Below are positions 4,432 to 61,400 of a DNA stretch of 64,000 nt, one piece after another. Origin of the DNA: an uncultured Bacteroidales bacterium (GTDB lineage Bacteria > Bacteroidota > Bacteroidia > Bacteroidales > Bacteroidaceae). The position numbers were made by a program, and so were the translations under genes. The DNA lies in the NCBI GenBank assembly GCA_902802285.1, contig CADCLI010000001.1, positions 4,010-68,009 of the forward strand. Direction: 5' to 3'. Under the pieces are notes generated by a model. The model did no database searches, was not told where the DNA came from, and worked only from the letters and a program-made list of their open reading frames with translations. Each line of letters starts with the position of its first letter. Within the stretch, counting starts at the first letter, position 1.

Positions 4432-6553
4432 GGTTGCAGCGCACCACCTTTATCTTGACATGGTCACCCAGACGATAACGCTTGCGGGTACGCTGTCCGG
4501 TGATGCAGTAGTTCTTCTCATCAAATTCAAAGTAGTCACCACCCAGGGAGCGTATGCCTATCATGCCTTCGCACTTGTTTTCTATGATTTCAGCGTATAT
4601 TCCCCACTCGGTGACACCGCTGATTACGGCATCAAACACCTGACCCATGCGGTCAGCCATGTATTCCACCTGCTTGTACTTGATGCTGGCGCGCTCGGCC
4701 TGCTCGGCCAGTTGCTCCCGGCCTGAGCAATGCTCGCAATACTCTTCATACTTGGGCTGGCTTACACTGCGTCCGCCACCCATGTAACGGGTGAGCAGTC
4801 GGTGTACCATCAGGTCGGGATAGCGGCGTATGGGCGATGTAAAGTGTGTGTAGAACTTGAATGCCAGTCCGTAGTGTCCGATGTTTTCGGTAGTATAGCA
4901 GGCCTTCTGCATGGAGCGGATGGAGATGGTCTCTATGAGTTCCTGCTCTTTCTTGCCCTTGACCTCCGATAACATCTTGTTCATGGACTTGGCCATCTCG
5001 GCGGGATCACCGTTGGTCTTGAGTTTGTAACCGAACTTGGCCACAAAGTTCTGCAGGTTCTCCATACGCTCCGGATCGGGCTCATCGTGTACACGGTAGA
5101 CGAATGTCTTGGGATTGCCGCCCTTGACATTCCCGATGAATTCGGCCACAGTGCGGTTGGCCAGCAGCATGAACTCCTCGACCAGCTGGTTGGCATCCTT
5201 GGACTCCTTGAAGAATACGCTTACAGGATGTCCTTTCTCATCTATCTCAAACCTGACCTCTACACGGTCAAAACTCAGGGCTCCGTCCTGGAAACGCTTG
5301 GCGCGCAGTATCTTGGCCAGGCTGTCCAGGGTCATTATCTCGGTCTTGAACTCATCGCCCGGCAGTTTCTCCTTTCCTCCCTGCTGCTCACGCTCAATGA
5401 TTGCCTGCACCTCCTCATAGGCAAAACGGCGGTTGCTGCGTATCACTGTACGTGCTATGCGGGAGCGTTTTACCACGCCGGCATCGGTCATTTCAAGAAT
5501 GACGGAGTATGTGAGTTTATCCTCATCCTGACGCAGGGAGCACAGGTTATTGCAGAGTTTCTCCGGCAGCATCGGTATGGTACGGTCCACCAGGTATACG
5601 GATGTAGCCCGTTTGAAAGCCTCTTTGTCGATGATACTACCCTCCTGGACATAATAACTTACGTCGGCGATATGCACGCCTACCTCCCACAAGCCTTTCT
5701 TTATGGGACGTATTGAAAGTGCGTCGTCAAAGTCCTTGGCGTCATGGGGGTCAATAGTGAAAGTGGTAACGTCGCGGAAATCCTCGCGGCCGGCCAGGGC
5801 GGCATCGGTAATCTCCGATGAAATCTGTTCGGCAGCCTGCTCCACGTTTTCAGGATATGTATATGGCAGTCCGTATTCAGCCAGGATTGCATGCATCTCG
5901 GTGTTGTTTTCACCTGCCACACCCAGAATGTCTATTACCTTGCCTACTGGATTGCGGTCAGGCGTATCGGGCCATTCCACGACCTTTACCACGGCTTTCT
6001 CGCCGTCCCGTCCTTTCTTTAGGCTGGCCATAGGGATATAGATATCCTTGTCTGATTTATCGGGAGTAACCAGATAGGCAAACTTGCCCTTGACCTGAAG
6101 GGTACCTACAAATGTGTCTTTAGCGCGTTTCAGTATCTCCGTTACCTCGCCTTCGGGCCCGGCATGCGGACGGCGTGCAAACAGGACTACCTTTACGCGG
6201 TCACCGTTTACCGCGCCAGCCGAATTCCGTTCCGCCACGAATACGGGATCGCTTCCGTCATCGGGAACAAGGAAGTTCTTTCCGCCGACACGGCGCTGCA
6301 GGACACCCTCAACGAACTTGCTCTTCTGCATAAGGCTGAACTGACCGTCTTTCTCCTTGAGGAAACCGTCTTCGGCCAACTCCAGAACGATGTCCAGGCA
6401 CATGCTGCGCATGGGATGAGTCTTGAGTTTCAACTCATCATACAGTCTTTTTACACTTATACTGCTCTCCTGATTGTCACGGAACCAGTCCGTAACAAGG
6501 TCCGTCATTGTCCTGCGGTTAAGACGGACACCTCCTTTATATGATCTTCCCAT
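4385..6553 (-). CDS. rnr: Ribonuclease R (RNB family 3'-5' exoribonuclease with C-terminal S1 domain)
   Basis: 722 aa. Has the RNB motifs FTIDPHDAKDFDDALS and HFTSPIRRYPDL, and an S1-like C-terminus (VFDAVISGVTEWGIYAEI). Confidence 0.9.
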   Translation of the reverse strand: MGRSYKGGVRLNRRTMTDLVTDWFRDNQESSISVKRLYDELKLKTHPMRSMCLDIVLELAEDGFLKEKDGQFSLMQKSKFVEGVLQRRVGGKNFLVPDDGSDPVFVAERNSAGAVNGDRVKVVLFARRPHAGPEGEVTEILKRAKDTFVGTLQVKGKFAYLVTPDKSDKDIYIPMASLKKGRDGEKAVVKVVEWPDTPDRNPVGKVIDILGVAGENNTEMHAILAEYGLPYTYPENVEQAAEQISSEITDAALAGREDFRDVTTFTIDPHDAKDFDDALSIRPIKKGLWEVGVHIADVSYYVQEGSIIDKEAFKRATSVYLVDRTIPMLPEKLCNNLCSLRQDEDKLTYSVILEMTDAGVVKRSRIARTVIRSNRRFAYEEVQAIIEREQQGGKEKLPGDEFKTEIMTLDSLAKILRAKRFQDGALSFDRVEVRFEIDEKGHPVSVFFKESKDANQLVEEFMLLANRTVAEFIGNVKGGNPKTFVYRVHDEPDPERMENLQNFVAKFGYKLKTNGDPAEMAKSMNKMLSEVKGKKEQELIETISIRSMQKACYTTENIGHYGLAFKFYTHFTSPIRRYPDLMVHRLLTRYMGGGRSVSQPKYEEYCEHCSGREQLAEQAERASIKYKQVEYMADRMGQVFDAVISGVTEWGIYAEIIENKCEGMIGIRSLGGDYFEFDEKNYCITGQRTRKRYRLGDHVKIKVVRCNLEKKQMDYELVSTEE

Positions 6554-47933: not shown

Positions 47934-48083
47934 GCGGACAATGTGGAAAGATTTGCGGGACTGATGGTTCCGGACAGCTTGCAACCACACAAAAAAATGC
48001 TAAAAGTCAATCTTTTAACACGCTTTGAATGAGTACCGTTGCGGTCCCATTGTCCACAAGACAGTGGGACTTTTATTTTTTTT
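47934..48083 (+). promoter_or_regulatory. metK leader with mutually exclusive antiterminator/terminator; candidate SAM-responsive riboswitch (class undetermined)
   Basis: The terminator ends 6 nt before the metK ATG, so metK must be transcribed through it. ggacaatg (47936-47943) is complementary to cattgtcc (48048-48055) in the 5' arm of the terminator. The helix aaagatt/aatcttt (47947-47953 / 48009-48015) encloses a 55-nt core that contains GGGACUG, UUGCAACC and AUGCUAAAAG. Confidence 0.45.
48044..48083 (+). terminator. Intrinsic terminator/attenuator immediately upstream of metK
   Basis: gtcccattgtc-cacaa-gacagtgggac forms an 11-bp stem with one G-U pair on the plus strand. It is followed by ttttatttttttt. 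Confidence 0.7.
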
Positions 48084-50479: not shown

Positions 50480-52807
50480 ATGAAAAAAACCGCGTTATTT
50501 GTTTTGCTTTCTGCTTTAGCCCTTTCGGCCTGCAGCCAGGCTCCAATCAAGTCACAAGACAACATGCTGTCAATTGGCATGCCCGACGGAACCCTCTACG
50601 TAACCCCTATGGCCGATGACGCCATCCGTGTACAGTACATTCCCGAAGGTATAGAACTGCCACAACTGGAAAACCTGATTTATACAGAGAAACAGGAAAA
50701 CCGCGCATGCAATTATTCCCAGTCCGGCAATAAGGTTACCGTCAGCGCACATGGCGACGGCTTGCGTGCCGTGGTCAATACCCGTACCGGACAGATCAGA
50801 TTCTTAGACTCAAAAGGAAAGGTTATCCTGTCAGAGGATGTCCGTTCCATACAGGCCGGCAAGACGGGTGACCTGAATTCACTCTCCGTAAGCCAGTCAT
50901 TCAAGACCGCCCCTGATGAGTTCCTCTTTGGTACCGGCCAGTTCCAGGACGGCTACCTGAACATACGCGGACTGACCCGCCGCCTTACACAGGTGAACAC
51001 CCAGATTTCAATACCGATGATTATCTCCAACAAGGGATACGGAATCCTGTGGAACAACTACGGACTGACCGATTACAACCCCTCGGACTTTACGGTTGAG
51101 TTGCAGCAGGGCGGATCGGACGGTACGGCTGTGACAGTAAATGCCACCGGTACTGCCGGTAACGTCAGGGAACGCCGCGTTTTCAACGATTTCAGCGGTG
51201 AAATCGAGGTAAAGGAGAGCGGTGACTACTCCATCCTGCTGGACGTAGGCCAGTCGATGGCCCGCAAGCATCTGCTCTCCATTGACGGCGACACCATAAT
51301 CAACGCCAACAACACCTGGCTGCCGCCTACATCATCGGCCATAACCCATCTGGACAAGGGTACACATAAGGTGTTTGTAAGCGGATCACGCGGTGACAAG
51401 CCGTCGGTTGGCGTACGCAAGGTTACCGATGTCACCACATTCAGCTCGCCCGTAGCCGTGGCACTTGACTACACCGTATTTGCCGGCACTGCCGATGAGA
51501 TAATAAGTTCATACCGCAACCTGACCGGTAAGGTTCCGCAGATGCCCGACTGGGCTTTCGGTTACATTCACTGCCGTGAGCGCTATGACAGCCAGAAAGA
51601 GCTGCTTGAGAACGCCCACCGTCTCAAGGATGAGGGCTACCGCACCAGCGTGATTGTACAGGACTGGCAGTGGTGGGGCAAGTACGGCTGGAACGCCATG
51701 CAGTTTGACGAGGGCAAGTACCCCGATCCCAAGGCTATGACCGACGAGCTTCACGCCATGGACATGAAACTTATGCTCTCAGTATGGTCCAAGATAGACA
51801 AGAACAGTGAGGTGGGCCGTCAGATGAACGCCGCCGGCTATTACATAAAGGGAACTGACTGGATAGACTTCTTCAATCCCGATGCAGCCGCAGCCTACTG
51901 GAAGAACTTCAGCGAGCGTCTGCTTCCCACAGGCATAGACGCCTGGTGGCAGGATGCTACCGAGCCTGAGAACGATGACCTTAAGGGCCGTATGGTGGCC
52001 GGCGGTAAGATTCCCGGTGAGTTCTACCGCAACGCCTACCCCAACATGGTTAACCACACCGTTTACAACGGACTTATCAAAGATCAGCCCGACCGTGACC
52101 CGATGATCCTGACCCGCAGCGGATTTACCGGAATACAGCGCTACGGCGCCATCAACTGGTCAGGCGATGTAGGCAATGACTGGGAGACCCTGCGTCGTCA
52201 GATAGCAGGCGGACTCAGCCTGATGGCCACAGGACAGCCCTGGTGGACATACGATGCAGGCGGATTCTTCCGTCCCGGCAACCAATATACCGATGCCGAT
52301 TATCAGGAGCGTATGCTGCGTTGGATACAGACTGCCGTATATCTGCCGTTCATGCGTGTACACGGTTATATGAGCCGCACCGAGCCCTGGAACTACTCAG
52401 AGGAGACACAACAGATATTCCGCAAGCAGATAGACCTGCGCTACAAACTCCAGCCTTACATCCTGGAGTGCGCCAAAAAGGTAACTGAGGAGAACTACAC
52501 CATGATGCGTCCGCTGGTATTTGATTATCCCGATGATACTGAGGCTCTCAAGCAGCAGACGGAATTCATGTTCGGTCCGTCACTGCTGGTATGTCCTGTA
52601 ACTGAGCCCGGTATAAAGACAATGCGCGTATATCTGCCGGGTGACGGACAGGATTGGGTTTCATTCAACGCCTTGGTTAATGCATCAGAGCGTGGCATCA
52701 TGGTCAAACCTTATGTCTATAAGGGAGGCACTTACGTTGATGTTGAGGTTTCAAAGGACTGCATACCCGTATTTGAAAAAGCTGATCACTTAATTGAATT
52801 GAAATAA
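50480..52807 (+). CDS. Glycoside hydrolase family 31 (alpha-glucosidase/alpha-xylosidase type), lipoprotein
   Basis: Lipobox LALSACS. Also VIVQDWQWWG..., GIDAWWQDATEPE (nucleophile region), INWSGDV and FMRVHG, typical GH31 blocks. Confidence 0.8.
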   Translation: MKKTALFVLLSALALSACSQAPIKSQDNMLSIGMPDGTLYVTPMADDAIRVQYIPEGIELPQLENLIYTEKQENRACNYSQSGNKVTVSAHGDGLRAVVNTRTGQIRFLDSKGKVILSEDVRSIQAGKTGDLNSLSVSQSFKTAPDEFLFGTGQFQDGYLNIRGLTRRLTQVNTQISIPMIISNKGYGILWNNYGLTDYNPSDFTVELQQGGSDGTAVTVNATGTAGNVRERRVFNDFSGEIEVKESGDYSILLDVGQSMARKHLLSIDGDTIINANNTWLPPTSSAITHLDKGTHKVFVSGSRGDKPSVGVRKVTDVTTFSSPVAVALDYTVFAGTADEIISSYRNLTGKVPQMPDWAFGYIHCRERYDSQKELLENAHRLKDEGYRTSVIVQDWQWWGKYGWNAMQFDEGKYPDPKAMTDELHAMDMKLMLSVWSKIDKNSEVGRQMNAAGYYIKGTDWIDFFNPDAAAAYWKNFSERLLPTGIDAWWQDATEPENDDLKGRMVAGGKIPGEFYRNAYPNMVNHTVYNGLIKDQPDRDPMILTRSGFTGIQRYGAINWSGDVGNDWETLRRQIAGGLSLMATGQPWWTYDAGGFFRPGNQYTDADYQERMLRWIQTAVYLPFMRVHGYMSRTEPWNYSEETQQIFRKQIDLRYKLQPYILECAKKVTEENYTMMRPLVFDYPDDTEALKQQTEFMFGPSLLVCPVTEPGIKTMRVYLPGDGQDWVSFNALVNASERGIMVKPYVYKGGTYVDVEVSKDCIPVFEKADHLIELK

Positions 52808-55191
52808 TGAAAAGATTACTGACCCTTTGCATTGCGCTTACCGGTGTGTTCGCCGTTTGCAGCGCACAAGAGCCTGATGACTGGACCACAAAGGTTACAT
52901 TCTTCAGCCCGTCCATAGTAAGAATCTACAAGACCGGACCTGACAATCCTGACAAGAAACAGAGTCTGTCCGTTACGATGCAGCCGCAGCAGGTCAAGGT
53001 TTCCCAATCGGTCGATAAGAACGGAGCCCAGGTTTATAAGAGTCCGGCTCTGACGGTTAAGGTATCGGGAAACGATGTCACATTCATGGACAGCAAGGGT
53101 AAGGTCCTGCTGGCCGAGAACGGTTACGGTCACGGCAACGTGGCCATGACACGCCCCGAGTATGCCGATATACCCGTTGACCAGGGTTTTAACCTTGATG
53201 CCGATGAGCCTCTCTACGGAATAGGAATACAGCAGGACGGCAAGATGGCCAAGAGCGGAACCTACCGCCGCATGATTCAGGGCAATACCGATGACTACTG
53301 CAACATAATCCAATCCATCAAGGGATACGGCCTGTTCTGGGACAACTACTCTCCCACCACACTGGGCATTGAGGATGGCAAGTTCTACTTTACCTCTGAG
53401 AACGCCGGCTGCGTGGATTACTACTTTATCTGGGGCGGTAATGCCGACGGCGTCATAGCCGGTATCCGCCAACTGACCGGCACAGTACCCATGCTGCCGC
53501 TCTGGAGCTACGGATTCATGCAGAGCCGCGAGCGTTACAAGTCATCGGCCGAACTGACCGAGGTGCTGGACCGCTACCGCTCAATCGGAGTGCCTATCGA
53601 CGTGATGATCCAGGACTGGCAGTACTGGGGCAGCAACTACCTGTGGAACGCCATGGAGTTCAATGCACCTGAGTTCAGCAATCCCGAGCGCTGGATTAAG
53701 CATATCCATGACCAGAACGCCAAACTGATGATTTCCATCTGGTCATCGTTCGGTCCCATGACCAAGCCCTACCGCGAGCTGGAGCCCAAGAACCTGCTCA
53801 TCGATATAGAGACCTGGCCGCAGAGCGGACTTACCGACTGGCCTCCACGCAGGGACTATCCGTCAGGAGTACGTCCGTATGACCCCTACAGCAAGGAGGC
53901 GCGTGATATATACTGGAACCACCTGACACGCCTGTATGACCTTAACATTGACGGCTGGTGGATGGACTCTACCGAGCCTGACCACATGGACTTTAAGGAG
54001 ACTGACCTGGACCTGCCCACGGCAATGGGTCCTTGGCGCAGGGTTCGTAACGCATTCCCGCTTATGGCAGTGGGCGGTGTCTATGACAACCAGCGTGCCA
54101 TGGAGAATGGCTCCGACAAGCGTGTGCTTATACTGACCCGTTCAGTGTTTGCAGGCCAGCAGCGCTACGGCTCCAACACATGGTCCGGTGATGTTCAGTC
54201 CAACTGGAATTCTCTCAGGAATCAGGTTCCCGCAGGCCTTAACTTTGCCCTGACCGGCAACCCCAATTTTAACAGTGACCTGGGCGGATTCTTTGCCAAC
54301 AGCTATAACGAGCGCTCACAGGACGGCAGCGCAACCCGCAACCCGCTCTATCAGGAGCTCTACGTACGCTGGATGCAGTACGGCGTGTTCTGCCCCATGA
54401 TGCGCAGCCACGGTACCGAGGTCCCGCGTGAACTCTACTACTACGGCCAGGCCGGCGAGCCAGTATTTGATGCCCTGCTGGGTGCCGTAAAGATGCGCTA
54501 CAGCCTTCTGCCCTACATCTACTCAGTGGCTCACGATGTCAATGCCAACAACGGCACCTATCAGCGCGCCCTGATGATGGATTTCAGAAATGACCGTAAG
54601 GTGTGGGACATCAACAACGAGTTCATGTTTGGACGCTCACTGCTGGTAGCTCCGGTCCTTGAGGCCAAATACACACCTGAGAGAGCACAGAGCAAGAGCC
54701 GCGCCGGAATTGGTGATGTGGATTTTCTGGAAACAAAGAGCACCAAGGTCTATCTGCCGGCAGGTACCAAGTGGTATGACTTTGAGACCATGAAGCTGTA
54801 TAATGGCGGTCAGGAGATAGAGCGTGAGGTAAACATCAAGAGCATCCCGCTCTTTGTCAAGGCCGGCACCATCCTGCCCATAGGCCCCGATGTACAGTAC
54901 TCTACAGAGAAGCCTTGGGATGACCTGGAGATACGCGTCTATGCCGGAGCCGGCGGCACATTCTGCCTCTACGAGGATGAGTTTGACAACTACAACTACG
55001 AGAACGGAGCCTGCTCAACCATAGAATTCAGCTATAACGGCAAGAACAGCCTGACCATCGGAGCCCGCCAAGGCTCATTTGATGGCATGATACAGAACCG
55101 CAAGTTCCGCATAATCCTGATCAAGGACGGAAAGCAGAGCGAGCCCAAAACCGTAAGCTACTCCGGCAAGAAAGTTTCAATAAAATTATAA
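52807..55191 (+). CDS. Glycoside hydrolase family 31 (second paralog), secreted
   Basis: VMIQDWQYWG, IDGWWMDSTEPD, NTWSGDV and MMRSHG. Its start codon overlaps the upstream stop codon. Confidence 0.8.
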   Translation: MKRLLTLCIALTGVFAVCSAQEPDDWTTKVTFFSPSIVRIYKTGPDNPDKKQSLSVTMQPQQVKVSQSVDKNGAQVYKSPALTVKVSGNDVTFMDSKGKVLLAENGYGHGNVAMTRPEYADIPVDQGFNLDADEPLYGIGIQQDGKMAKSGTYRRMIQGNTDDYCNIIQSIKGYGLFWDNYSPTTLGIEDGKFYFTSENAGCVDYYFIWGGNADGVIAGIRQLTGTVPMLPLWSYGFMQSRERYKSSAELTEVLDRYRSIGVPIDVMIQDWQYWGSNYLWNAMEFNAPEFSNPERWIKHIHDQNAKLMISIWSSFGPMTKPYRELEPKNLLIDIETWPQSGLTDWPPRRDYPSGVRPYDPYSKEARDIYWNHLTRLYDLNIDGWWMDSTEPDHMDFKETDLDLPTAMGPWRRVRNAFPLMAVGGVYDNQRAMENGSDKRVLILTRSVFAGQQRYGSNTWSGDVQSNWNSLRNQVPAGLNFALTGNPNFNSDLGGFFANSYNERSQDGSATRNPLYQELYVRWMQYGVFCPMMRSHGTEVPRELYYYGQAGEPVFDALLGAVKMRYSLLPYIYSVAHDVNANNGTYQRALMMDFRNDRKVWDINNEFMFGRSLLVAPVLEAKYTPERAQSKSRAGIGDVDFLETKSTKVYLPAGTKWYDFETMKLYNGGQEIEREVNIKSIPLFVKAGTILPIGPDVQYSTEKPWDDLEIRVYAGAGGTFCLYEDEFDNYNYENGACSTIEFSYNGKNSLTIGARQGSFDGMIQNRKFRIILIKDGKQSEPKTVSYSGKKVSIKL

Positions 55192-55231
55192 CCAAGCGTT
55201 TCCTATTGTGTAAATAAACCTGATTGCACAG

Positions 55232-55492
55232 AACTTTTTGGGGTATCGGTATCGGAAACCATGGCCGCCCGTGGGCTTGTGAACCGACGAACGAAGAGAG
55301 AGTAGAGAAAGCTCGCTTACTCTACCGAACGAGGAGGAGGTCTAGAACGAAGTTCTGAACGGGAGGGGCCCGTCACTAAGAAGATGCTCTGGAAGATGGG
55401 AGTTTACTCACGTCTTTCAGAGCGTCTTATTAGGGATGGGAGGGATAGCGCCGCAAGGCGCGTAGTTTCAGATACTGATACCCCAAAAAGTT
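55232..55492 (+). ncRNA. Candidate structured RNA or MITE-like element of unknown class
   Basis: A 22-bp closing helix joins aactttttggggtatcggtatc (55232-55253) and gatactgataccccaaaaagtt (55471-55492), with one G-U pair in the plus-strand reading. Internal hairpins lie at 55302-55325, 55344-55356 (GAA loop), 55386-55423 (13-bp stem) and 55448-55461 (GCAA tetraloop). There is no ORF. I recognised no motifs of RNase P, tmRNA, SRP or the common riboswitches. Confidence 0.4.
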
Positions 55493-55548
55493 ATCCTTAA
55501 TATCGTAGATTTTACAAAGAAAGAACCTTCCTTATTTTTACTTTTTTG

Positions 55549-55556
55549 TAATTTTG
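55549..55556 (+). promoter_or_regulatory. Candidate -7 promoter box (TAnnTTTG) for the methyltransferase-purD unit
   Basis: taattttg lies 26 nt upstream of ATG 55582. Confidence 0.3.
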
Positions 55557-55581
55557 CCGTTTGAAACATCATCAGTTGTAG

Positions 55582-57048
55582 ATGACAGAATTTGAAATGA
55601 TTGCCAAGACCTTCCAGGGGCTGGAAGAGATTCTTGCAAAAGAACTTATTGATCTGGGAGCCAATGGGGTGGCCATTGGTAACCGAATGGTGTCCTTTAA
55701 GGGAGACAAGGCCCTGATGTACAAGGCCAATTTCCATCTACGTACCGCAATCCGAATACTTAAACCTTTCCTGCACTTCAAGGCCGACAGCGCCGATGAC
55801 GTGTATGAGATATGCCGCAAGGTGGACTGGGAGAAGTACATGGACCTGAGTGACAGCTTTGCCGTTGACTCTGTTGTCTATAGCGAGGATTTCCGTCACT
55901 CCAAGTTTGTGGCGTACCGGGTAAAAGATGCCATAGCCGACTTTTTCCGTGACAAATACGGCAAACGACCAAACGTCAGCGTAGCCAATCCGGACCTTAC
56001 GTTCCATATCCATATATCACATGATGACTGCTCGCTCTCTCTTGACAGCAGCGGAGAGTCACTGCACAAGCGCGGTTACCGTCAGGAGGCCATGGAAGCC
56101 CCTCTGAACGAGGTACTGGCTGCAGGCATGATACTGATGTCGGGCTGGGACGGCAAGTGCGATTTTGTAGATCCTATGTGCGGATCGGGCACAATTCCCA
56201 TAGAGGCCGCACTTATTGCCAGGAACATGGCACCGGGTCTGTTCCGAAGCAGTTTCGCCTTTGAGAAATGGAAGGATTTTGACCGTGATCTGTTTGAGGA
56301 GATATACAATGATGACTCGCAGGAGCGTGATTTTGAATTCACCATCAGGGGTTATGACAAAGACCCCAAGGCCATACTGACCGCAAAGCGCAACGCCAAG
56401 GCTGCCGGTCTGCTGGATACCATCCGGTTTGAGCAGCGTGACTTCAAGGATTTTGAACCTGTAAAACAGCGTACCGTAATCATAACCAATCCTCCTTACG
56501 GAGAGCGTCTGGTAGAGGACAACCTGCTTGGACTTTACGAGATGATAGGCGAGCGGCTAAAACATGCCCTGATAGGCGGCGAGGCCTGGATTATCAGCTA
56601 TCACTACGAGTGTTTTGACAAGATAGGCCTCAAACCGTCGGCCAAGATACCCCTGTTTAACGGCGCCCTGCCCTGTGAATTGCGCAAGTACGAGATATTT
56701 GACGGACGCTATAATGATTTCCGCGGAGGTGACCGCCGTCTCAAGAAGGATGACCTGCCCACCCGCCGCAGCAGCACCCTGCGCCACAAGGCCCGTTTGG
56801 CCGAGAAGCAGGAGGCAAAGGAGGCTGATAAGCCGCTCCGTAAGACCGATGAGCGCAAGCCTTTCCGCAAGGCCGATGACCACAAGCCTTTCCGCAAGGC
56901 TGAAGGCGGAAAGCCTTTCCATAAATCAGATGGAAAGAAGCCGCTACGCAGGAATGAAAGTGGAGCCAAACCTTTCCGCAAGAGTGAAGGTGGAGCCAAA
57001 CCTTTCCGTAAAACTGATAAGAAACCGTTCAGAAACAATAGGAAATGA
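55582..57048 (+). CDS. THUMP-domain class I SAM-dependent RNA methyltransferase (RlmL/UPF0020-like) with a Lys/Arg-rich repeat tail
   Basis: An N-terminal THUMP-like region is followed by [13 protein letters not shown] (SAM motif I) and [10 protein letters not shown] (motif IV). The last 106 aa carry about 8 copies of KPFRK-type repeats. Confidence 0.8.
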
Positions 57049-58316
57049 AGATTCTGTTACTAGGAAGCGGAGGCCGTGAGCATGCTCTGGCCTGGAAGAT
57101 AGCGCAAAGCCCGCAGCTTGAAAAGCTTTTCATAGCTCCCGGCAATGCCGGCACCGCAAACGTAGGTGAGAACGTAGCCATACAGGCCAGTGACTTTGAC
57201 GCCATCAAGACATTTGTTCTTGAAAAGAAGATAGACATGGTAGTTGTAGGTCCCGAGGATCCTCTGGTAAACGGCATCTATGACTATTTCAAGAATGACG
57301 CGGCACTTAAAGCCATCCCCGTCATCGGCCCGTCCAAGGCCGCCGCACAGATGGAGGGCAGTAAGGATTTTGCCAAGCGTTTCATGCAGCGCCACAACAT
57401 ACCAACTGCAGCATATCAGACATTCACCGGTGAGAACCTGGAGGAGGGACTCAAATTTCTGGAGACACTCAAGGCTCCATACGTACTCAAGGCCGACGGC
57501 CTGTGCGCAGGCAAGGGTGTACTGATTCTGCCTACTCTGGACGAGGCGAAGAGGGAGCTGAAGGAGATGCTGGGTGGTATGTTCGGTAATGCATCGTCCC
57601 GTGTGGTGATTGAGGAGTTCATGAGCGGCATAGAGTGCTCGGTATTTGTCCTGACTGACGGCAAACACTACAAGATACTGCCCGAAGCTAAGGATTACAA
57701 GCGTATAGGCGAGCATGACACCGGTCTCAACACCGGCGGCATGGGTTCAGTGTCACCTGTTCCGTTTGCCACAAAGGAGTGGATGCAGAAGGTTGAGGAC
57801 CGGATAATCCGTCCCACAGTAGATGGCCTGGCACAGGACGGCCTGGACTACAAGGGATTCATATTCTTTGGTCTGATAAATGTGGACGGTAATCCTAGGG
57901 TAATTGAGTATAACGTGCGAATGGGCGACCCTGAGACCGAAACCGTCATGCTTCGCCTCAAGAGCGACATAATAGAGTTGTTCAAGGGTGTTGCACAGGG
58001 CAACCTGGACACCAAGACCCTGGAGCAGGACCCGCGGTCGGCCGTTTGCGTGATGCTTGTATCAGGCGGATATCCGCAGCACTATGACAAGGGATATGTG
58101 ATAAGCGGAATAGATAAAGTCCGGGAGAGCGTGGTGTTCCACGCAGGCACTGCTTTCGATGCCAACGGTAACGTGGTAACCGCAGGCGGACGCGTGATAG
58201 CCGTAAGCTCATACGGAAAGGATAAGGAGGAGGCTCTGGCGCTGTCATTCAAGGGTGCCAACCTTATTGAATTTGAAAAGAAATATTTCCGCAGAGACAT
58301 AGGTCAGGACCTGTAA
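57045..58316 (+). CDS. purD: Phosphoribosylamine--glycine ligase
   Basis: [19 protein letters not shown] and an ATP-grasp core. The start overlaps the upstream stop (ATGA). Confidence 0.95.
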
Positions 58317-58416: not shown

Positions 58417-61400
58417 ATGAATTACAAAAGACTGAACACCATTATCGGATGGCTGGTATTCGCTGTCGCTGCAGTCACATACTGCATGACAATTGAGCCT
58501 ACAGCCAGCTTCTGGGACTGCCCGGAGTTCATAACCACCGGCTACAAGCTGGAAGTGGGTCACCCCCCCGGGGCACCGATATTCATGCTGACAGCAAACC
58601 TTTTCTCACAGTTTACAAGTGACCCGGGCAAGGTAGCAATGATGGTTAACATCATGTCGGCCATGCTCAGCGCGTTATGCATACTGTTCCTGTTCTGGAG
58701 CATAACCATGCTTGTAAAGAAACTGGTGGCAGGAACCAAGGATCCTGATATGTGGCAGATGATTACCATTTTCGGTTCCGGAATAGTAGGCGCCCTGGCA
58801 TACACCTGGAGCGATACTTTCTGGTTCAGCGCCGTTGAGGGTGAGGTCTACGCATATTCTTCATTCTGCACCGCCGTTACATTCTGGCTTATACTCAAGT
58901 GGGAGGAGAATGCAGACCTGCCGCACAGTTCACGCTGGCTTGTACTCATTGCATACCTGATAGGTGTCTCTGTCGGTGTCCACCTGCTGAACCTGCTTTG
59001 TATCACAGCCATTGTTCTTGTCTATTATTTCAAGAAGTCCGAAAATCCCACTTGGAAAGGCGGCCTTCTGGCATTTGTCCTTTCGGGAGTCATAATAGCC
59101 GCTGTACTGTACGGAATAGTTCCCGGCATCGTGAAGGTGGGCGGATGGTTTGAACTTCTGTTCGTGAACGGACTGGGCATGCCATTCAATACAGGACTGA
59201 TAATCTATATCATCCTGTTGGCCTGTACCTTTCATTCCTGCTTACCGTAGCTTTTGCCGGAATTCCGTTTTACGGACACAAGGCATCAGGTATCATCCTG
59301 GGTCTTGTAATACTGGGTGCATGCGCATTCTATCTTTTCTCAAAAGGTGTACCTCAGAATGTCAAGCCCACTGCCAGTCTCCTGAACACCATAATGCTTT
59401 GCGTCATGATGATCACAATCGGCTATTCATCATATGCCGTTATTGTAATACGTTCCACGGCCAATCCTCCGATGGACCAGAACTCCCCCGAAGACATTTT
59501 CTCTCTCGGCGATTATCTGGCACGTGAACAGTACGGTTCCAGACCTCTGCTTTACGGACAGGCTTACAGTTCGGAATATAAGTACAACTACAATCCTGAA
59601 GGCAAATATTACGAGCCTGAATATGAGGTGACAGGTAAATCATACGGCCGTCTTGAAAAGAAATCAGCCGATGAGAAAGACCGTTACTATGTAATGGATG
59701 AGAAAAGAGAGTGGAAATATGCCCAGAACATGCTGTTCCCGCGCATGTACAGTTCAGAGCCCGATCACAAGCGCGAGTATATAAACTGGTGCGGCGGAAT
59801 CAAAGGACGTACATACACCTATAACCAGTTCGGACAGAATATAAAGGTAACTATCCCCACGCAGGCAGAGAACCTTAAGTTCTTTATCCGTTATCAGGTG
59901 AATTTCATGTACTGGAGATACTTCCTCTGGAATTTTGCCGGACGCCAGAATGACTCTCAGAACCAGTTTGGAGAACCGGAGAACGGTAACTGGATAACCG
60001 GATTCCGTTTCATTGACCGCAAACTTACCGGTGGAGACCCGGCCATGCTGCCGGAGGCATTCAAGGGAAAGGGACATAACGTATTCTACTGCCTGCCTCT
60101 GCTGCTGGGACTGATCGGTCTGCTATGGCAGGTAGGCAAGGGCAAGAAAGGGACACAACAGTTCTTTGTGGTACTTGCCCTGTTTATCATGACAGGACTG
60201 GCTATCGTGGTTTACCTGAATCAGACCCCGCGTCAGCCCCGTGAGCGTGATTACGCCTATGCCGGATCATTCTACGCTTTCGCCATATGGATAGGTATGG
60301 GCGTGGCTGCCATCTCCGAATGGATCAAATATTTGGCCGGAAAGAAGATAGCCCCGATAGTGGCATCACTGTTATGCCTGCTTGTTCCCATCCAGATGGT
60401 AAGCCAGACATGGGATGACCATGACCGTAGCGGACGTTATACCTGCAGGGATTTCGGTCAGAACTACCTTACCACACTTCAGGAAAAAGGCAATCCCATC
60501 ATATTCACCAACGGAGACAACGATACATTCCCCCTCTGGTACAATTTTGAAACCGAAGGATTCCGTACCGATGCACGCTGCTGCAACTTGAGTTATCTCA
60601 TGACCGACTGGTACATTGACCAGATGAAAAGGCCTGCATATGACTCACCGGCATTGCCGATATCATTTGAGAGAATTGATTACCAGACAGGAACCAATGA
60701 CGTCGTTCCTATCAGACCCGAAGCCAAGGAGACCCTGTTGAGCAGAAACTCCAGGGAGGTGGTAGAGAATTCTTTTGAACTCAAGAACGTGCTTGATTAC
60801 TGGATCAGACAGAATCACGTAATTCCTACCGATACCATATGGTTCAAGATTGACAAGGATGCCGTTATCCGTTCCGGTATGAAAATACCCGATCAGTTCC
60901 GCGGAGCTACAGATGAGGAGACCAAGGCAAAATTGCCGGATAAGATGGTTATCTCACTTAAGGGCAAGTCCCGTCTGTTCAAGAATGAGATAATGATGCT
61001 TGACCTCATTGCACATTGCAATTGGGAAAGGCCTCTTTACATGGCAACAACCGTTCCTTCCAGCAGTTATATGAACCTTGGGGATTATTTCCTGCTTGAA
61101 GGTCTGGCTTTCCGTATCACTCCATTCAATTGGACAGCTCTGAAAGAAAGCCCGGTGGATACCGAAAAGATGTACGCAAACATGATGAATTTCAAGTTTG
61201 GCGGTGCAGACAATCCCGACCTCTATCTTGATGAGACCGTCCGCCGTATGTGCATCTCACATCGCCGTCTGTTTTCTCAACTTGCATCAGAACTGTATGA
61301 GGAGGGGCAGAAAGAGAAGGCTCTTCAGATCCTCAACAAGGTTGAAGCCGGCATATCCGACAAACTGCTTCCTCAGAATGACCTGTTCTGTGTTGAGACA

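What the first reader, a model, noticed from the sequence alone, without database searches (positions are those of the whole stretch)
55232..55492. 261-nt highly structured intergenic element closed by a 22-bp helix
The ends form a 22-bp duplex that is perfect except for one pair, which is G-U only if the plus strand is the RNA. Inside are at least four hairpins, including a 13-bp stem (55386-55423), a GCAA (GNRA) tetraloop hairpin (55448-55461) and a GAA-loop hairpin. There are also purine-rich direct repeats (cgaacgaagagagag / cgaacgaggaggagg / gaacgaagttc). The element has no ORF. It lies between a GH31 gene and the promoter of an RNA methyltransferase-purD unit. I could not match it to RNase P, tmRNA, SRP, 6S or the common riboswitch consensus sequences. 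No reverse transcriptase gene is adjacent, which argues against a retron. It could be a novel ncRNA or a MITE with 22-bp terminal inverted repeats.
Basis: seen in the sequence. Interest (0 to 1): 0.65.

Follow-up and report, generated by a model that had tools for sequence, protein, structure and literature searches.

The report
Hairpin-shaped mobile repeat in rumen Prevotellaceae
The 261-nt "structured RNA candidate" is one full-length copy of a many-copy, hairpin-shaped, non-coding repeat that litters the gene ends of rumen Prevotella-like bacteria, so it is a new family of a familiar kind of small mobile DNA rather than a unique RNA gene, although its core folds in a conserved, strand-specific way.

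Summary
The ends form a 28-nt-arm helix, and the four hairpins and the repeats are as described (z = -9). The element is not unique. An exact 20-base end pattern hit at least 115 loci in about 22 rumen Bacteroidales MAG species, with 9-13 or more loci per MAG. In rumen DNA metagenomes the element is 5-50x deeper than its flanks and joins many different flanks.

The family is modular. It has a conserved terminal stem P1, a core with a covarying pseudoknot plus P3 and P4, and optional inserts B and C. The window copy carries all of them. "P1-only" copies and copies with an unrelated interior also exist.

Copies lie in intergenic DNA at gene 3' ends (60 of 63), in either orientation. They usually sit at the apex of larger copy-specific palindromes. 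Many of these are REP-like hairpin doublets that also flank RAYT (Y1 transposase) genes.

No Rfam family, tRNA, reverse transcriptase or adjacent transposase was found, and no clear target-site duplication. Conserved G.U pairs mark the window + strand as the folding strand. Orthologous copies are as conserved as neighbouring genes, or more so.

Verdict: a new MITE/REPIN-like repeat family. An added RNA or ssDNA function of the core remains possible. Interest is moderate.

The parts
55198..55214 (+). Degenerate left outer arm. It is a remnant of a REP-like 'U' hairpin unit (GTTTCCTATTGTGTAAA; family consensus ...GGGACGGTTCnnnTGTGyAC).
   Evidence: It pairs at 73% with 55511-55525 (I5). The flank comparison with other copies gives at most 74% identity.
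55216..55231 (+). Left sub-terminal flank 'O1' (AAACCTGATTGCACAG). It carries the left-only G(T)GCACA bulge that precedes P1 in most copies.
   Evidence: The motif CCAAGGTGCACAGAAC is followed by the P1 arm in 61 of 69 occurrences. Contigs from other copies diverge from the window at 55224/55225 (loose ends).
55232..55259 (+). P1 5' arm (AACTTTTTGGGGTATCGGTATCGGAAAC). This is the most conserved part of the family and contains a tandem GGTATC repeat.
   Evidence: Statistics on 60 copies are.
55263..55276 (+). Hairpin S1 (55263-55266 with 55273-55276). Its loop CCCGT (55268-55272) is the 5' strand of helix S2.
   Evidence: Covariation on the alignment is (helices 2 and 3).
55280..55360 (+). Optional module B, a 76-nt insert bounded by a TGAAC direct repeat. 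It holds the purine-rich direct repeats, hairpin 55302-55325 and the GAA-loop hairpin 55344-55356. It sits in the linker between S1 and the 3' strand of S2.
   Evidence: A 76-nt skip from 55279 to 55356 is seen in DNA and RNA contigs. Exact 76-nt gaps separate orthologous copies.
55359..55363 (+). S2 3' strand (ACGGG). It pairs with 55268-55272, either as an H-type pseudoknot with S1 or as a nested helix enclosing module B.
   Evidence: 55 of 56 copies are fully Watson-Crick across three covarying haplotypes. RNAalifold predicts the helix independently.
55364..55368 (+). Invariant junction AGGGG.
   Evidence: Invariant columns in alignment A2.
55369..55440 (+). P3. The closing pairs are CCCG (55369-55372) with TGGG (55437-55440), including a conserved G.U. 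Optional module C (55373-55436) is a long extension of the P3 tip.
   Evidence: (I1). The closing G.T is present in 51 of 52 copies.
55441..55447 (+). Invariant junction AGGGATA.
55448..55461 (+). P4 hairpin (GCGCC-GCAA-GGCGC). Its stem sequence varies between copies while staying paired.
   Evidence: helices 5 and 6.
55462..55492 (+). Junction GTA followed by the P1 3' arm (GTTTCAGATACTGATACCCCAAAAAGTT). The tetranucleotide GTAG (55462-55465) is nearly invariant.
55493..55541 (+). Degenerate right flank: the O1-right remnant and the right 'U' unit remnant (TTTACAAAGAAAGAACCTTCCTTATTTTTAC; family consensus GyACACAnnnGAACCGTCCCnnTTGTGyAC).
   Evidence: I5; at most 71% identity to other copies' flanks.
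55549..55556 (+). TAATTTTG, which matches the Bacteroidota -7 promoter box TAnnTTTG. It is the likely promoter of the methyltransferase-purD unit. It is not part of the repeat but bounds it.
   Evidence: Read from the sequence. The consensus comes from established knowledge of Bacteroides promoters. RNA contigs are absent at 55512-55579 and resume at about 55581-55603.

Best explanation
The element is one full-length copy of a non-autonomous, hairpin-shaped dispersed repeat family (MITE/REPIN-like) found in ruminal Prevotellaceae/Bacteroidales.

Shown:
- The family is multi-copy. Its ends are conserved: stem P1, with an invariant-position G.U and a purine-purine mismatch.
- Its interior is modular. 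The core has a pseudoknot (S1/S2), P3 and P4. Inserts B and C are optional. Some copies have only P1, and some have an unrelated interior.
- Copies sit in intergenic DNA at gene 3' ends, in either orientation. Most sit at the apex of larger, copy-specific palindromes.
- Many of those palindromes are inverted doublets of a REP-like hairpin whose conserved loop is GGGACGGTTCT. The same doublets flank RAYT (Y1/HUH transposase) genes in related rumen contigs.

Inferred:
- The unit spreads, and is homogenised between copies, as single-stranded DNA hairpins handled in trans. The RAYT is the likeliest enzyme, but a still unseen transposase is possible.
- It lands in, or travels with, terminator-like or REPIN hairpin apices.
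- At this locus it was inserted after the GH31 stop codon and is co-transcribed as the GH31 3' UTR. Its roughly 28-bp stem marks where upstream transcripts end, ahead of the methyltransferase promoter.
- Any benefit to the host, such as 3'-end stabilisation or insulation, is secondary.
For: Multi-copy status:
There are 9-13 or more loci in single MAGs.
- DNA metagenome depth is 300-775 over the element against 6-115 on the flanks, with many different joining flanks.
- Logan contigs break inside the element.

Shared ends with different interiors:
- Modules A/B/C/D are mapped.
- Mini 'P1-only' copies and roughly 300-nt 'type-2' copies are shown.

Gene context, for 63 copies: 30 convergent, 17 + 13 tandem, 3 divergent, none intragenic.

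Palindromic copy-specific flanks: the own-pair score averages 20, against 9.4 for cross pairs (sequences).

States of the orthologous GH31-methyltransferase locus in relatives:
- nothing;
- a simple terminator hairpin;
- a REP doublet with a solo arm remnant;
- a short element of another subfamily;
- the full element.

In 517 kb of methyltransferase-anchored loci the element occurs only at this site, in three contigs.

RAYT link:
- L120 ORF 7316-7999 matches PF01797 and NCBIfam REP_Tyr_transpos. It has the NHVH and YIHQNP motifs and lies 10 nt from a U doublet.
- Homologues are flanked by the same doublets in L210, L211 and L216.

Structure and strand:
- 97% of cells are paired.
- 15 pairs have double changes.
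- The covariation score is 0.249, against 0.091 in shuffles (0 of 500 reach it) and at most 0.036 in slid controls.
- The S2 helix is fully Watson-Crick in 55 of 56 copies.
- There are 57 G.U on the + strand against 3 A.C.

Conservation:
- Orthologous copies are 93-100% identical where flanking CDS are 82-97%.
- The window's modules A and D are up to 98% identical to copies elsewhere, while its outer arms reach only 71-74%.

RNA: contigs of six metatranscriptomes run from GH31 into the element. They have zero depth at 55512-55579 and resume at the methyltransferase gene.
Against: - No target-site duplication could be defined, and no empty allele at high flank identity was seen.
- No transposase gene carries the P1 ends in about 0.9 Mb of element-bearing loci.
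- The RAYT genes found are flanked by the outer U hairpins, not by P1 or the core. The enzyme that handles P1 and the core is therefore not identified.
- About 19 of 59 copies, the window's among them, have weak or decayed outer palindromes.
- A covarying pseudoknot, invariant junction purines and conservation above that of neighbouring genes are more than a simple selfish palindrome needs. They would also fit a functional RNA.
- Orientation shows no bias against local GC skew (27 vs 34), so the lagging-strand bias expected of HUH elements is not demonstrated. The test is weak.
- The RNA evidence comes from unstranded assembled contigs only.
Confidence: 0.75

Rival explanations
1. The type-1 core (P1, pseudoknot, P3, P4) is a functional structured RNA family. 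It would be a multi-copy cis- or trans-acting ncRNA, for example a protein-binding or processing module in 3' UTRs. Either it merely resembles a repeat, or it hitch-hikes on REPIN-like hairpins.
For: - Stems covary while junction nucleotides (AGGGG, AGGGATA, GTAG) are invariant.
- The S2 pseudoknot helix covaries.
- Conserved G.U pairs are strand-specific: 57 G.U against 3 A.C.
- The optional inserts fall only in a loop (B) and at a helix tip (C), as in RNA expansion segments.
- Conservation is at or above that of flanking CDS.
- The element is present in metatranscriptome contigs.
Against: - There is no orientation preference relative to neighbouring genes in tandem contexts (13 co-directional, 17 antisense).
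- No conserved Bacteroidota promoter box lies upstream, so half the copies would be transcribed on the non-folding strand.
- Summed RNA depth of all copies is only about 1-6x that of one neighbouring gene, whereas DNA depth is 5-50x. It is therefore not an abundant stable RNA.
- 'P1-only' and type-2 copies keep the ends but lack the core.
- There is no Rfam match.
Confidence: 0.17
2. It is a classical DDE-transposase MITE. The P1 arms would be terminal inverted repeats bound by a transposase encoded by a full-length IS elsewhere in the genome. On this reading the link to REP/RAYT hairpins is only a preference for inserting into hairpins.
For: - Several unrelated interiors share the same 22-32 nt ends.
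- The GGTATC tandem repeat in the arms looks like a protein-binding site.
- IS elements are often lost from MAG assemblies, so absence from the loci is weak evidence.
Against: - No direct repeats flank the copies. The flanks are inverted rather than direct repeats.
- No IS with these ends occurs in the 115 loci, in IMG/VR, or in the phage and plasmid collections.
- The conserved wobble and mismatch in the stem point to recognition of a folded single strand.
Confidence: 0.06
3. It is a unique locus-specific element: a retron-type ncRNA, a riboswitch or leader for the methyltransferase-purD unit, an invertible promoter, or a chance palindrome.
For: - The architecture (terminal stem, internal hairpins, one long hairpin) superficially resembles a retron msr-msd.
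- It lies upstream of an operon.
Against: - It is multi-copy in many genomes.
- There is no reverse transcriptase nearby.
- It is absent from the same locus in most relatives, which keep the operon.
- It mostly lies at gene 3' ends, with only 3 of 63 copies in divergent (promoter-type) positions.
- Orthologous copies keep one orientation in all the ortholog groups compared.
- z-scores of -9 exclude chance.
Confidence: 0.02

Closest known systems
REPINs / BIMEs with their RAYT (REP-associated tyrosine transposase), e.g. Pseudomonas fluorescens REPINs and E. coli REP/TnpA-REP. Bacteroidota RAYT subclass 2.6 is described in PMC6006769.
   Same: - Extragenic, at gene 3' ends.
- Inverted doublets of a short hairpin form a long hairpin.
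- Many copies per genome.
- Conserved mismatches in the stems.
- No target-site duplication.
- The outer 'U' doublets flank a Y1 transposase gene with NH[LIV]H and YIH[QN]NP motifs, a REPtron-like layout.
- Persistence at orthologous sites across species.
   Different: - The reported element is not the REP doublet itself. It is a 120-350 nt structured insert (P1 plus core) sitting in the doublet's spacer.
- P1 and the core were not seen next to the RAYT genes.
- The REP stems here differ from copy to copy, whereas classical REPIN populations are near-identical within a genome.
- The conserved REP motif lies in the hairpin loop, not as a 5' GTAG or CGTC tag (PMC3733652).
- The window copy has only decayed outer arms.
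Correia elements (Neisseria), ERIC/IRU (enterobacteria) and BOX elements (Streptococcus pneumoniae): bacterial MITE-like intergenic repeats.
   Same: - 100-300 nt, non-coding, imperfect palindromes with conserved ends.
- Length variants arise from internal insertions or deletions (ERIC, Correia), or from modular A-B-C composition (BOX).
- Co-transcribed with neighbouring genes into long RNA hairpins.
   Different: - Correia elements have TA target duplications and a defined 26-bp TIR. None is seen here.
- None of these families is reported with a covarying pseudoknotted core or nested in REP doublets.
- The host range is different (rumen Bacteroidales).
- These comparisons rest on my general knowledge of those families, not on tests run here.
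IS1397/ISKpn1-type insertion into REP hairpin loops, and bacterial group IIC introns that use terminator stem-loops as targets.
   Same: Mobile DNA that uses the apex or foot of pre-existing palindromes (REPs, terminators) as its landing site. This would explain the copy-specific palindromic flanks, the 3'-end location and the nesting.
   Different: Those elements encode their own transposase or reverse transcriptase, and this one encodes nothing. Apex targeting here is inferred from flank symmetry. It has not been shown with empty sites.

Membership tests
MITE (miniature inverted-repeat transposable element) | Small (under about 600 bp), non-coding, non-autonomous | tested here: met
   Copies are 55-350 nt. 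The only ORF is a non-conserved 44-codon TTG ORF. Module composition varies without regard to reading frame.
MITE (miniature inverted-repeat transposable element) | Terminal inverted repeats conserved across copies | tested here: met
   P1 arms: 24 positions, 1307 Watson-Crick pairs out of 1440 cells in 60 copies. Copies with unrelated interiors share the same ends.
MITE (miniature inverted-repeat transposable element) | Many dispersed copies in a genome | tested here: met
   At least 115 loci, with 9-13 or more loci per MAG. Depth excess with many different flanks.
MITE (miniature inverted-repeat transposable element) | Target-site duplication (direct repeats) at the ends | tested here: inconclusive
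   Flanks of 73 oriented copies show inverted, not direct, symmetry. No empty allele at high identity was available to fix the boundaries.
MITE (miniature inverted-repeat transposable element) | A full-length IS with the same ends encoding the transposase | tested here: not met
   None was found in about 0.9 Mb of element-bearing loci (ORF clustering; Pfam; motif scan). None was found in IMG/VR, phages or plasmids. Whole host genomes could not be scanned.
REPIN / REP-RAYT system | Two REP hairpins in inverted orientation forming a long hairpin | tested here: met
   U'-spacer-U doublets flank most copies. In the window only 65-74% remnants remain, at 55198-55214 and 55511-55541.
REPIN / REP-RAYT system | A cognate RAYT gene flanked by the same REP sequences (REPtron) | tested here: met
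   This is met for the outer U units: L120, L210, L211 and L216 on both sides or adjacent, and L215 on one side. It is not shown for the window's own genome, nor for P1 and the core.
REPIN / REP-RAYT system | The repeat itself (here P1 plus core) is the substrate of the RAYT | not testable with these tools
   This needs binding and cleavage assays or observed transposition. Only co-occurrence is shown.
Any curated RNA family (Rfam 15), including riboswitches, RNase P, tmRNA, 6S, ribozymes, omega-RNA/HEARO and FopS | Covariance-model match at the family's gathering score | tested here: not met
   No hit over the element in the window at gathering score. At E<=10 the only hits are sub-threshold eukaryotic-type families: three miRNA-precursor families and a trypanosomatid snoRNA, which match the long hairpin. 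There are no hits in 18 loci holding type-1 and type-2 copies. ARAGORN finds nothing.
Retron ncRNA (msr-msd) | Adjacent reverse transcriptase gene; normally one locus per genome | tested here: not met
   The neighbours are GH31 and methyltransferase/purD. There are hundreds of copies.
Intrinsic (Rho-independent) terminator | GC-rich hairpin followed directly by a U-tract | tested here: not met
   The terminator scan finds none in 55100-55700. The T-run lies 5' of the stem and the A-run 3' of it. RNA contig coverage nevertheless stops after the element.
Invertible promoter (inverton) | Both orientations at one locus; position upstream of genes | tested here: not met
   The ortholog groups compared all keep one orientation. 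No strand-changing joints were seen. Only 3 of 63 copies lie between divergent genes.

The most novel reading that the evidence does not exclude
The pseudoknotted type-1 core would be a functional folded nucleic acid in its own right. One possibility is a mobile ncRNA module, for example a protein-binding or self-processing RNA placed in 3' UTRs. The other is the single-stranded-DNA recognition structure of a so far undescribed hairpin-apex-targeting transposition system. In either case the module has colonised the REPINs of a Bacteroidota RAYT. It would then be a two-layer 'repeat within a repeat' whose inner layer is under its own selection.
Probability: 0.2. Interest if true: 0.75.

Novelty: new member of a known kind. 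Interest (0 to 1): 0.4.

Why it matters
The practical value is annotation. This sequence breaks rumen metagenome assemblies: contigs end in it, and RAYT genes sit on contigs of about 1 kb. It could also be mistaken for an ncRNA gene or a regulatory leader.

The biological value is threefold.
- It documents an abundant repeat family in the dominant rumen polysaccharide degraders.
- It links a conserved-loop REP hairpin (GGGACGGTTCT) to a Bacteroidota RAYT.
- It shows an inner element that is kept better than both its carrier arms and the neighbouring genes.

If the inner core proves functional, it would be a rare case of a structured RNA or ssDNA module spread by a REPIN-like vehicle. It would also give a handle on how 3' ends of Bacteroidota transcripts are shaped.

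Tried and rejected
- **Rfam.** Searched at gathering score on the window, at E<=10 on the locus, and on 18 related loci. The only hits were sub-threshold eukaryotic-type families (three miRNA-precursor families and a trypanosomatid snoRNA) matching the long hairpin.
- **tRNA/tmRNA.** ARAGORN found none.
- **Phage and plasmid collections.** blastn found no match.
- **IMG/VR scans.** The 22-base pattern gave 0 hits. The 17-base pattern gave 6 chance hits with no element.
- **Retron.** Rejected: there is no reverse transcriptase and the element is multi-copy.
- **Inverton.** Rejected on position and on stable orientation.
- **FopS sRNA family of Bacteroides (PMC11697453).** The architecture is different (single-stranded seed plus terminator), it is reported as deposited in Rfam, and there was no hit.
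- **CGTC-tagged REPs (PMC3733652).** The U units contain CGTC, but in the loop rather than as a 5' unpaired tag, so they are not filed there.
- **Adjacent transposase.** ORF clustering of 2321 ORFs found only housekeeping families. Pfam on candidates next to truncated copies found none. A HUH/Y motif scan of 4008 ORFs found one RAYT (L120) and one probable false positive that was not checked further (L048).
- **Orientation against local GC skew.** No bias, 27 vs 34. The test is weak.
- **Target-site duplications.** None are evident.
- **G-quadruplex reading of the G-tracts.** Considered, but one tract is used by the covarying S2 helix, so it is less likely.
- **Stranded RNA evidence.** All RNA runs are held only as contigs.
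- **Literature searches for a described Prevotella or rumen repeat of this kind.** Nothing specific was found.
Full report
**1.

The sequence at 55232-55492 closes on itself through 28-nt arms, 55232-55259 with 55465-55492, 93% complementary. The outer 22 bp contain a single non-Watson-Crick pair, G55248.T55476, which is a wobble only on the + strand. Further in there is a G.A mismatch.

- a long hairpin, 55369-55440;
- a GCAA hairpin, 55448-55461;
- a GAA-loop hairpin, 55344-55356;
- a purine-rich direct repeat.

Predicted folding is far beyond shuffles. As RNA the + strand gives -126.9 kcal/mol, z = -8.96. The - strand gives z = -8.5. As DNA z = -9.4.

The neighbours are a GH31 gene (52807-55191) and a THUMP/RlmL-type methyltransferase (55582-57048) overlapping purD.

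No Rfam family matches at gathering score. At E<=10 only sub-threshold eukaryotic-type hairpin families (three miRNA precursors and a snoRNA) appear. ARAGORN finds nothing.

**2. It is not a unique locus**

When rumen DNA metagenome contigs are laid on the locus, depth over the element is 300-775. The flanking genes have 6-115. Dozens of different sequences join the element at about 55225 and at 55484-55492.

Assemblies of near-identical strains either carry an identical intergenic region or break inside the right arm.

All but two chance hits, plus one probably mis-binned contig, come from about 22 ruminant-gut Bacteroidales/Prevotellaceae MAGs. Single MAGs hold 9-13 or more loci.

Phage, plasmid and IMG/VR collections hold no copy. 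In 517 kb anchored on the methyltransferase gene, which includes many human-gut relatives, the element occurs only at this very site, in three contigs.

**3. Anatomy of the family**

BLAST and manual alignment show a modular design.

The commonest form is about 121 nt and consists of:
- P1;
- a small hairpin S1, whose loop CCCGU pairs with a downstream ACGGG (helix S2);
- an invariant AGGGG;
- helix P3, closed by CCCG/UGGG with a conserved G.U;
- an invariant AGGGAUA;
- a variable hairpin P4;
- GUA, then the return strand of P1.

The window copy is the fullest form. Module B (about 55280-55360, 76 nt, bounded by a TGAAC repeat) sits in the linker between S1 and the 3' strand of S2. Module C (55373-55436) is a long extension of the P3 tip.

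Other combinations occur at about 147-216 nt. There are also 'P1-only' minis of 55-70 nt, and a roughly 300-nt 'type-2' form. Type-2 shares about 22 nt at the left end and about 32 nt at the right end but has an unrelated long fold-back interior.

**4. The fold is conserved, and one strand is the folding strand**

On 25 short-form copies:
- 97% of cells form standard pairs.
- 15 pairs show changes on both sides.
- The covariation score is 0.249, against 0.091 in column shuffles (0 of 500 reach it) and at most 0.036 when partners are slid.

RNAalifold independently recovers P1, S2 and P3.

Across 56 copies of all lengths, S2 is fully Watson-Crick in 55. It occurs as three haplotypes: CCCGT:ACGGG, CCCAT:ATGGG and CCCTC:GAGGG. 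S1 covaries too, as CGAC/GTCG, AGAC/GTCT, CGCC/GGCG and AACC/GGTT. S1 and S2 together form an H-type pseudoknot. S2 alone can also be drawn as a nested helix.

In 60 copies, P1 has 57 G.U pairs on the + strand against 3 A.C. One position is G.U in 50 of 60 copies. One position is a purine-purine mismatch in 59 of 60. The closing G.U of P3 is present in 51 of 52.

So the strand that is + in the window is the one selected to fold. These data cannot say whether it folds as RNA or as single-stranded DNA.

**5. Genomic habit**

All copies are intergenic. Of 63 copies with two callable neighbours, 30 lie between convergent genes, 30 between tandem genes and only 3 between divergent genes. In tandem contexts, 13 have the folding strand co-directional with the genes and 17 are antisense. 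The element therefore marks gene 3' ends but has no orientation preference. It also shows no bias against local GC skew, though that test is weak.

Outside P1, symmetry usually continues. The flanks are inverted repeats of each other and differ from copy to copy. The own-pair score averages 20, against 9.4 for cross pairs.

A frequent layer is CCAAG-GTGCACA-GAAC on the left against GTTC-T-CTTGG on the right. The 7-nt bulge is found on the left only.

The outermost layer in most copies is a pair of inverted 'U' units. These are hairpins with variable complementary stems and a conserved loop, GGGGACGGTTCTT/AAGAACCGTCCCC. In the window these arms are decayed, at 55198-55214 and 55511-55541.

**6. 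The U units are the REP sequences of a RAYT**

A motif scan of 4008 ORFs in all held DNA found one Y1 transposase. It is L120:7316-7999, which is cut by the locus end. It matches PF01797 (1.4e-9) and NCBIfam 'REP-associated tyrosine transposase'. Its motifs are NHVH and YIHQNP, as in the Bacteroidota subclass 2.6 of PMC6006769. Its stop codon lies 10 nt from a U'-30 nt-U doublet.

Full-length relatives are about 264 aa, and some are named RayT by their source. They mostly sit on contigs of about 1 kb that end in U sequence.

In the longer contexts the gene has U palindromes on both sides (L210, L211, L216) or on one side (L215). That is the REPtron layout. The reported element therefore occupies the spacer, or apex, of REPIN-like doublets.

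P1 and the core were not seen next to the RAYT genes themselves.

**7. History at this locus and elsewhere**

Relatives keep the GH31-methyltransferase synteny, but the spacer varies:
- about 40-50 nt with nothing (L125, L128);
- a plain GGGG...CCCC terminator-like hairpin (L127, L132, L146);
- a U doublet whose spacer holds only a 13-nt piece of a P1 arm (L133);
- a short element of a different S1/S2 subfamily (L145);
- the full element (window, L124, L139).

At other loci, orthologous copies in different species are 93-100% identical where the flanking coding DNA is 82-97% identical. Three ortholog pairs differ only by the exact 76-nt module B.

The window's modules A and D are up to 98% identical to copies at unrelated loci in other species. 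Its outer arms reach only 71-74%.

Either the interior is under purifying selection, or copies are repeatedly overwritten from one another by conversion or re-insertion. A mixture of both is likely. This step is inference.

**8. Transcription**

Only assembled contigs of metatranscriptomes are available, with no strand information. In six RNA runs, contigs run from GH31 into the element (for example 54900-55284 and 55000-55270). Depth is zero at 55512-55579 and resumes at about 55581-55603. DNA runs do cover that gap.

Summed RNA depth over the element is about 1-6x that of a neighbouring gene, while the DNA ratio is 5-50x. There is therefore no sign of an abundant stable RNA.

No canonical terminator is present, because no U-tract follows the stem. 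A TAATTTTG box at 55549-55556 fits the Bacteroidota -7 consensus for the downstream unit.

**9. Interpretation**

The best-supported reading (0.75) is a non-autonomous, hairpin-shaped mobile repeat of the MITE/REPIN kind. It is nested in REP doublets of a Bacteroidota RAYT, sits at terminator-like positions, and is co-transcribed as a 3'-UTR hairpin.

The mobilising enzyme for P1 and the core is inferred, not shown. Target-site duplications were not found.

The main rival (about 0.17) is that the core is a functional RNA module. For it:
- covariation including a pseudoknot;
- invariant junction purines;
- strand-specific wobbles;
- high conservation.

Against it:
- random orientation relative to transcription;
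- no promoter box;
- modest RNA levels;
- derivatives that lack the core.

A classical DDE-MITE (about 0.06) and locus-specific readings such as retron, leader, inverton or chance (about 0.02) fit poorly.

**10. Novelty and score**

The held literature and Rfam contain nothing matching this family. ISfinder could not be consulted.

The kind is known: intergenic palindromic repeats handled in trans. The family appears new. It is unusual in having a conserved, pseudoknotted inner module that is kept better than its carrier arms.

Interest is 0.4. It would rise to about 0.75 if the core proves to be a functional RNA or the recognition structure of a new hairpin-targeting system. I put the probability of that at about 0.2.

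Noticed in passing
L120:7207-7305 and 5581-5677; L211:25-65 and 920-1020; L216:40-125 and 985-1055; L215:3750-3815: There is a REP-like hairpin family with a conserved loop (GGGGACGGTTCTT / AAGAACCGTCCCC) and stems that differ between copies and genomes. It occurs as singlets after stop codons and as inverted doublets. It flanks RAYT (PF01797) genes of about 264 aa in a REPtron layout. The motif contains CGTC, but in the loop rather than as the 5' tag of the published CGTC-REP superfamily, which was reported to lack a dedicated transposase.
   Followed up: partly
L113:3280-3590; L025:3395-3700; L054:2000-2330; L028:5262-5560; also L014, L017, L031, L042, L043, L046, L064, L069, L070, L080, L083, L122: 'Type-2' elements are about 300 nt. 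They have the same O1/P1 ends as the reported element but an unrelated, nearly perfect long fold-back interior (for example ...CAGAACTATCGGTTTAGGGAG...CTCCCTAAACCGATAGTTCTG...). There is no Rfam hit and no ORF.
   Followed up: partly
window 47937-48013 (+): A SAM-II (long-loop) riboswitch aptamer matches at 51.1 bits against a gathering score of 44, E = 7.8e-07. It is the only Rfam hit in the 64-kb window.
   Followed up: no
window 58417-59250 and downstream; L001-L005 5836 onward: The TMEM260-like O-mannosyltransferase gene downstream of purD is a 1102-aa ORF in two near-identical strain contigs (L001, L005). In the window it is split or shortened (277 aa), as it is in L002 (289 + 815 aa), L003 and L004. 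This could be a frameshift polymorphism, phase variation or an assembly error.
   Followed up: no
L097:1700-1800 and 6280-6380; L071 right flank; L131:2348-2434; L099:4700-4900: A second family of hairpin repeats is built on GCAATTGGGGTCAGACCCC / GGGGTCTGACCCCAATTGC, or GGGGACAGTCCCC. It is sometimes found inside the spacers of U doublets or flanking P1 copies. This suggests several co-resident palindromic repeat families that nest in one another.
   Followed up: no
L037:4551-4767; L099:4740-4800: Runs of N (masked stretches or gaps) fall exactly inside copies of the element in two UBA1182 contigs. Many contigs end inside copies (L029, L038, L051, L055, L075, L079, L090, L093, L102, L108, L117). 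The repeat is a systematic assembly breakpoint in rumen MAGs.
   Followed up: no
window 50480-52807 and 52807-55191; 55582-57048 and 57045-58316: Two tandem GH31 genes share one base at 52807, which is both the last base of the first stop codon and the A of the next ATG. The methyltransferase and purD ORFs overlap by 4 nt. Both arrangements suggest translational coupling within each unit, with the repeat lying exactly between the two units.
   Followed up: no
L133:2860-2960 versus L145:2760-2920: These two close relatives share the same methyltransferase 5' UTR but hold remnants of the element in opposite orientations at the same site. One is a solo arm inside an intact U doublet. The other is a complete short element with decayed U arms. 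This suggests repeated insertion at one hairpin, or inversion between the inverted arms.
   Followed up: partly
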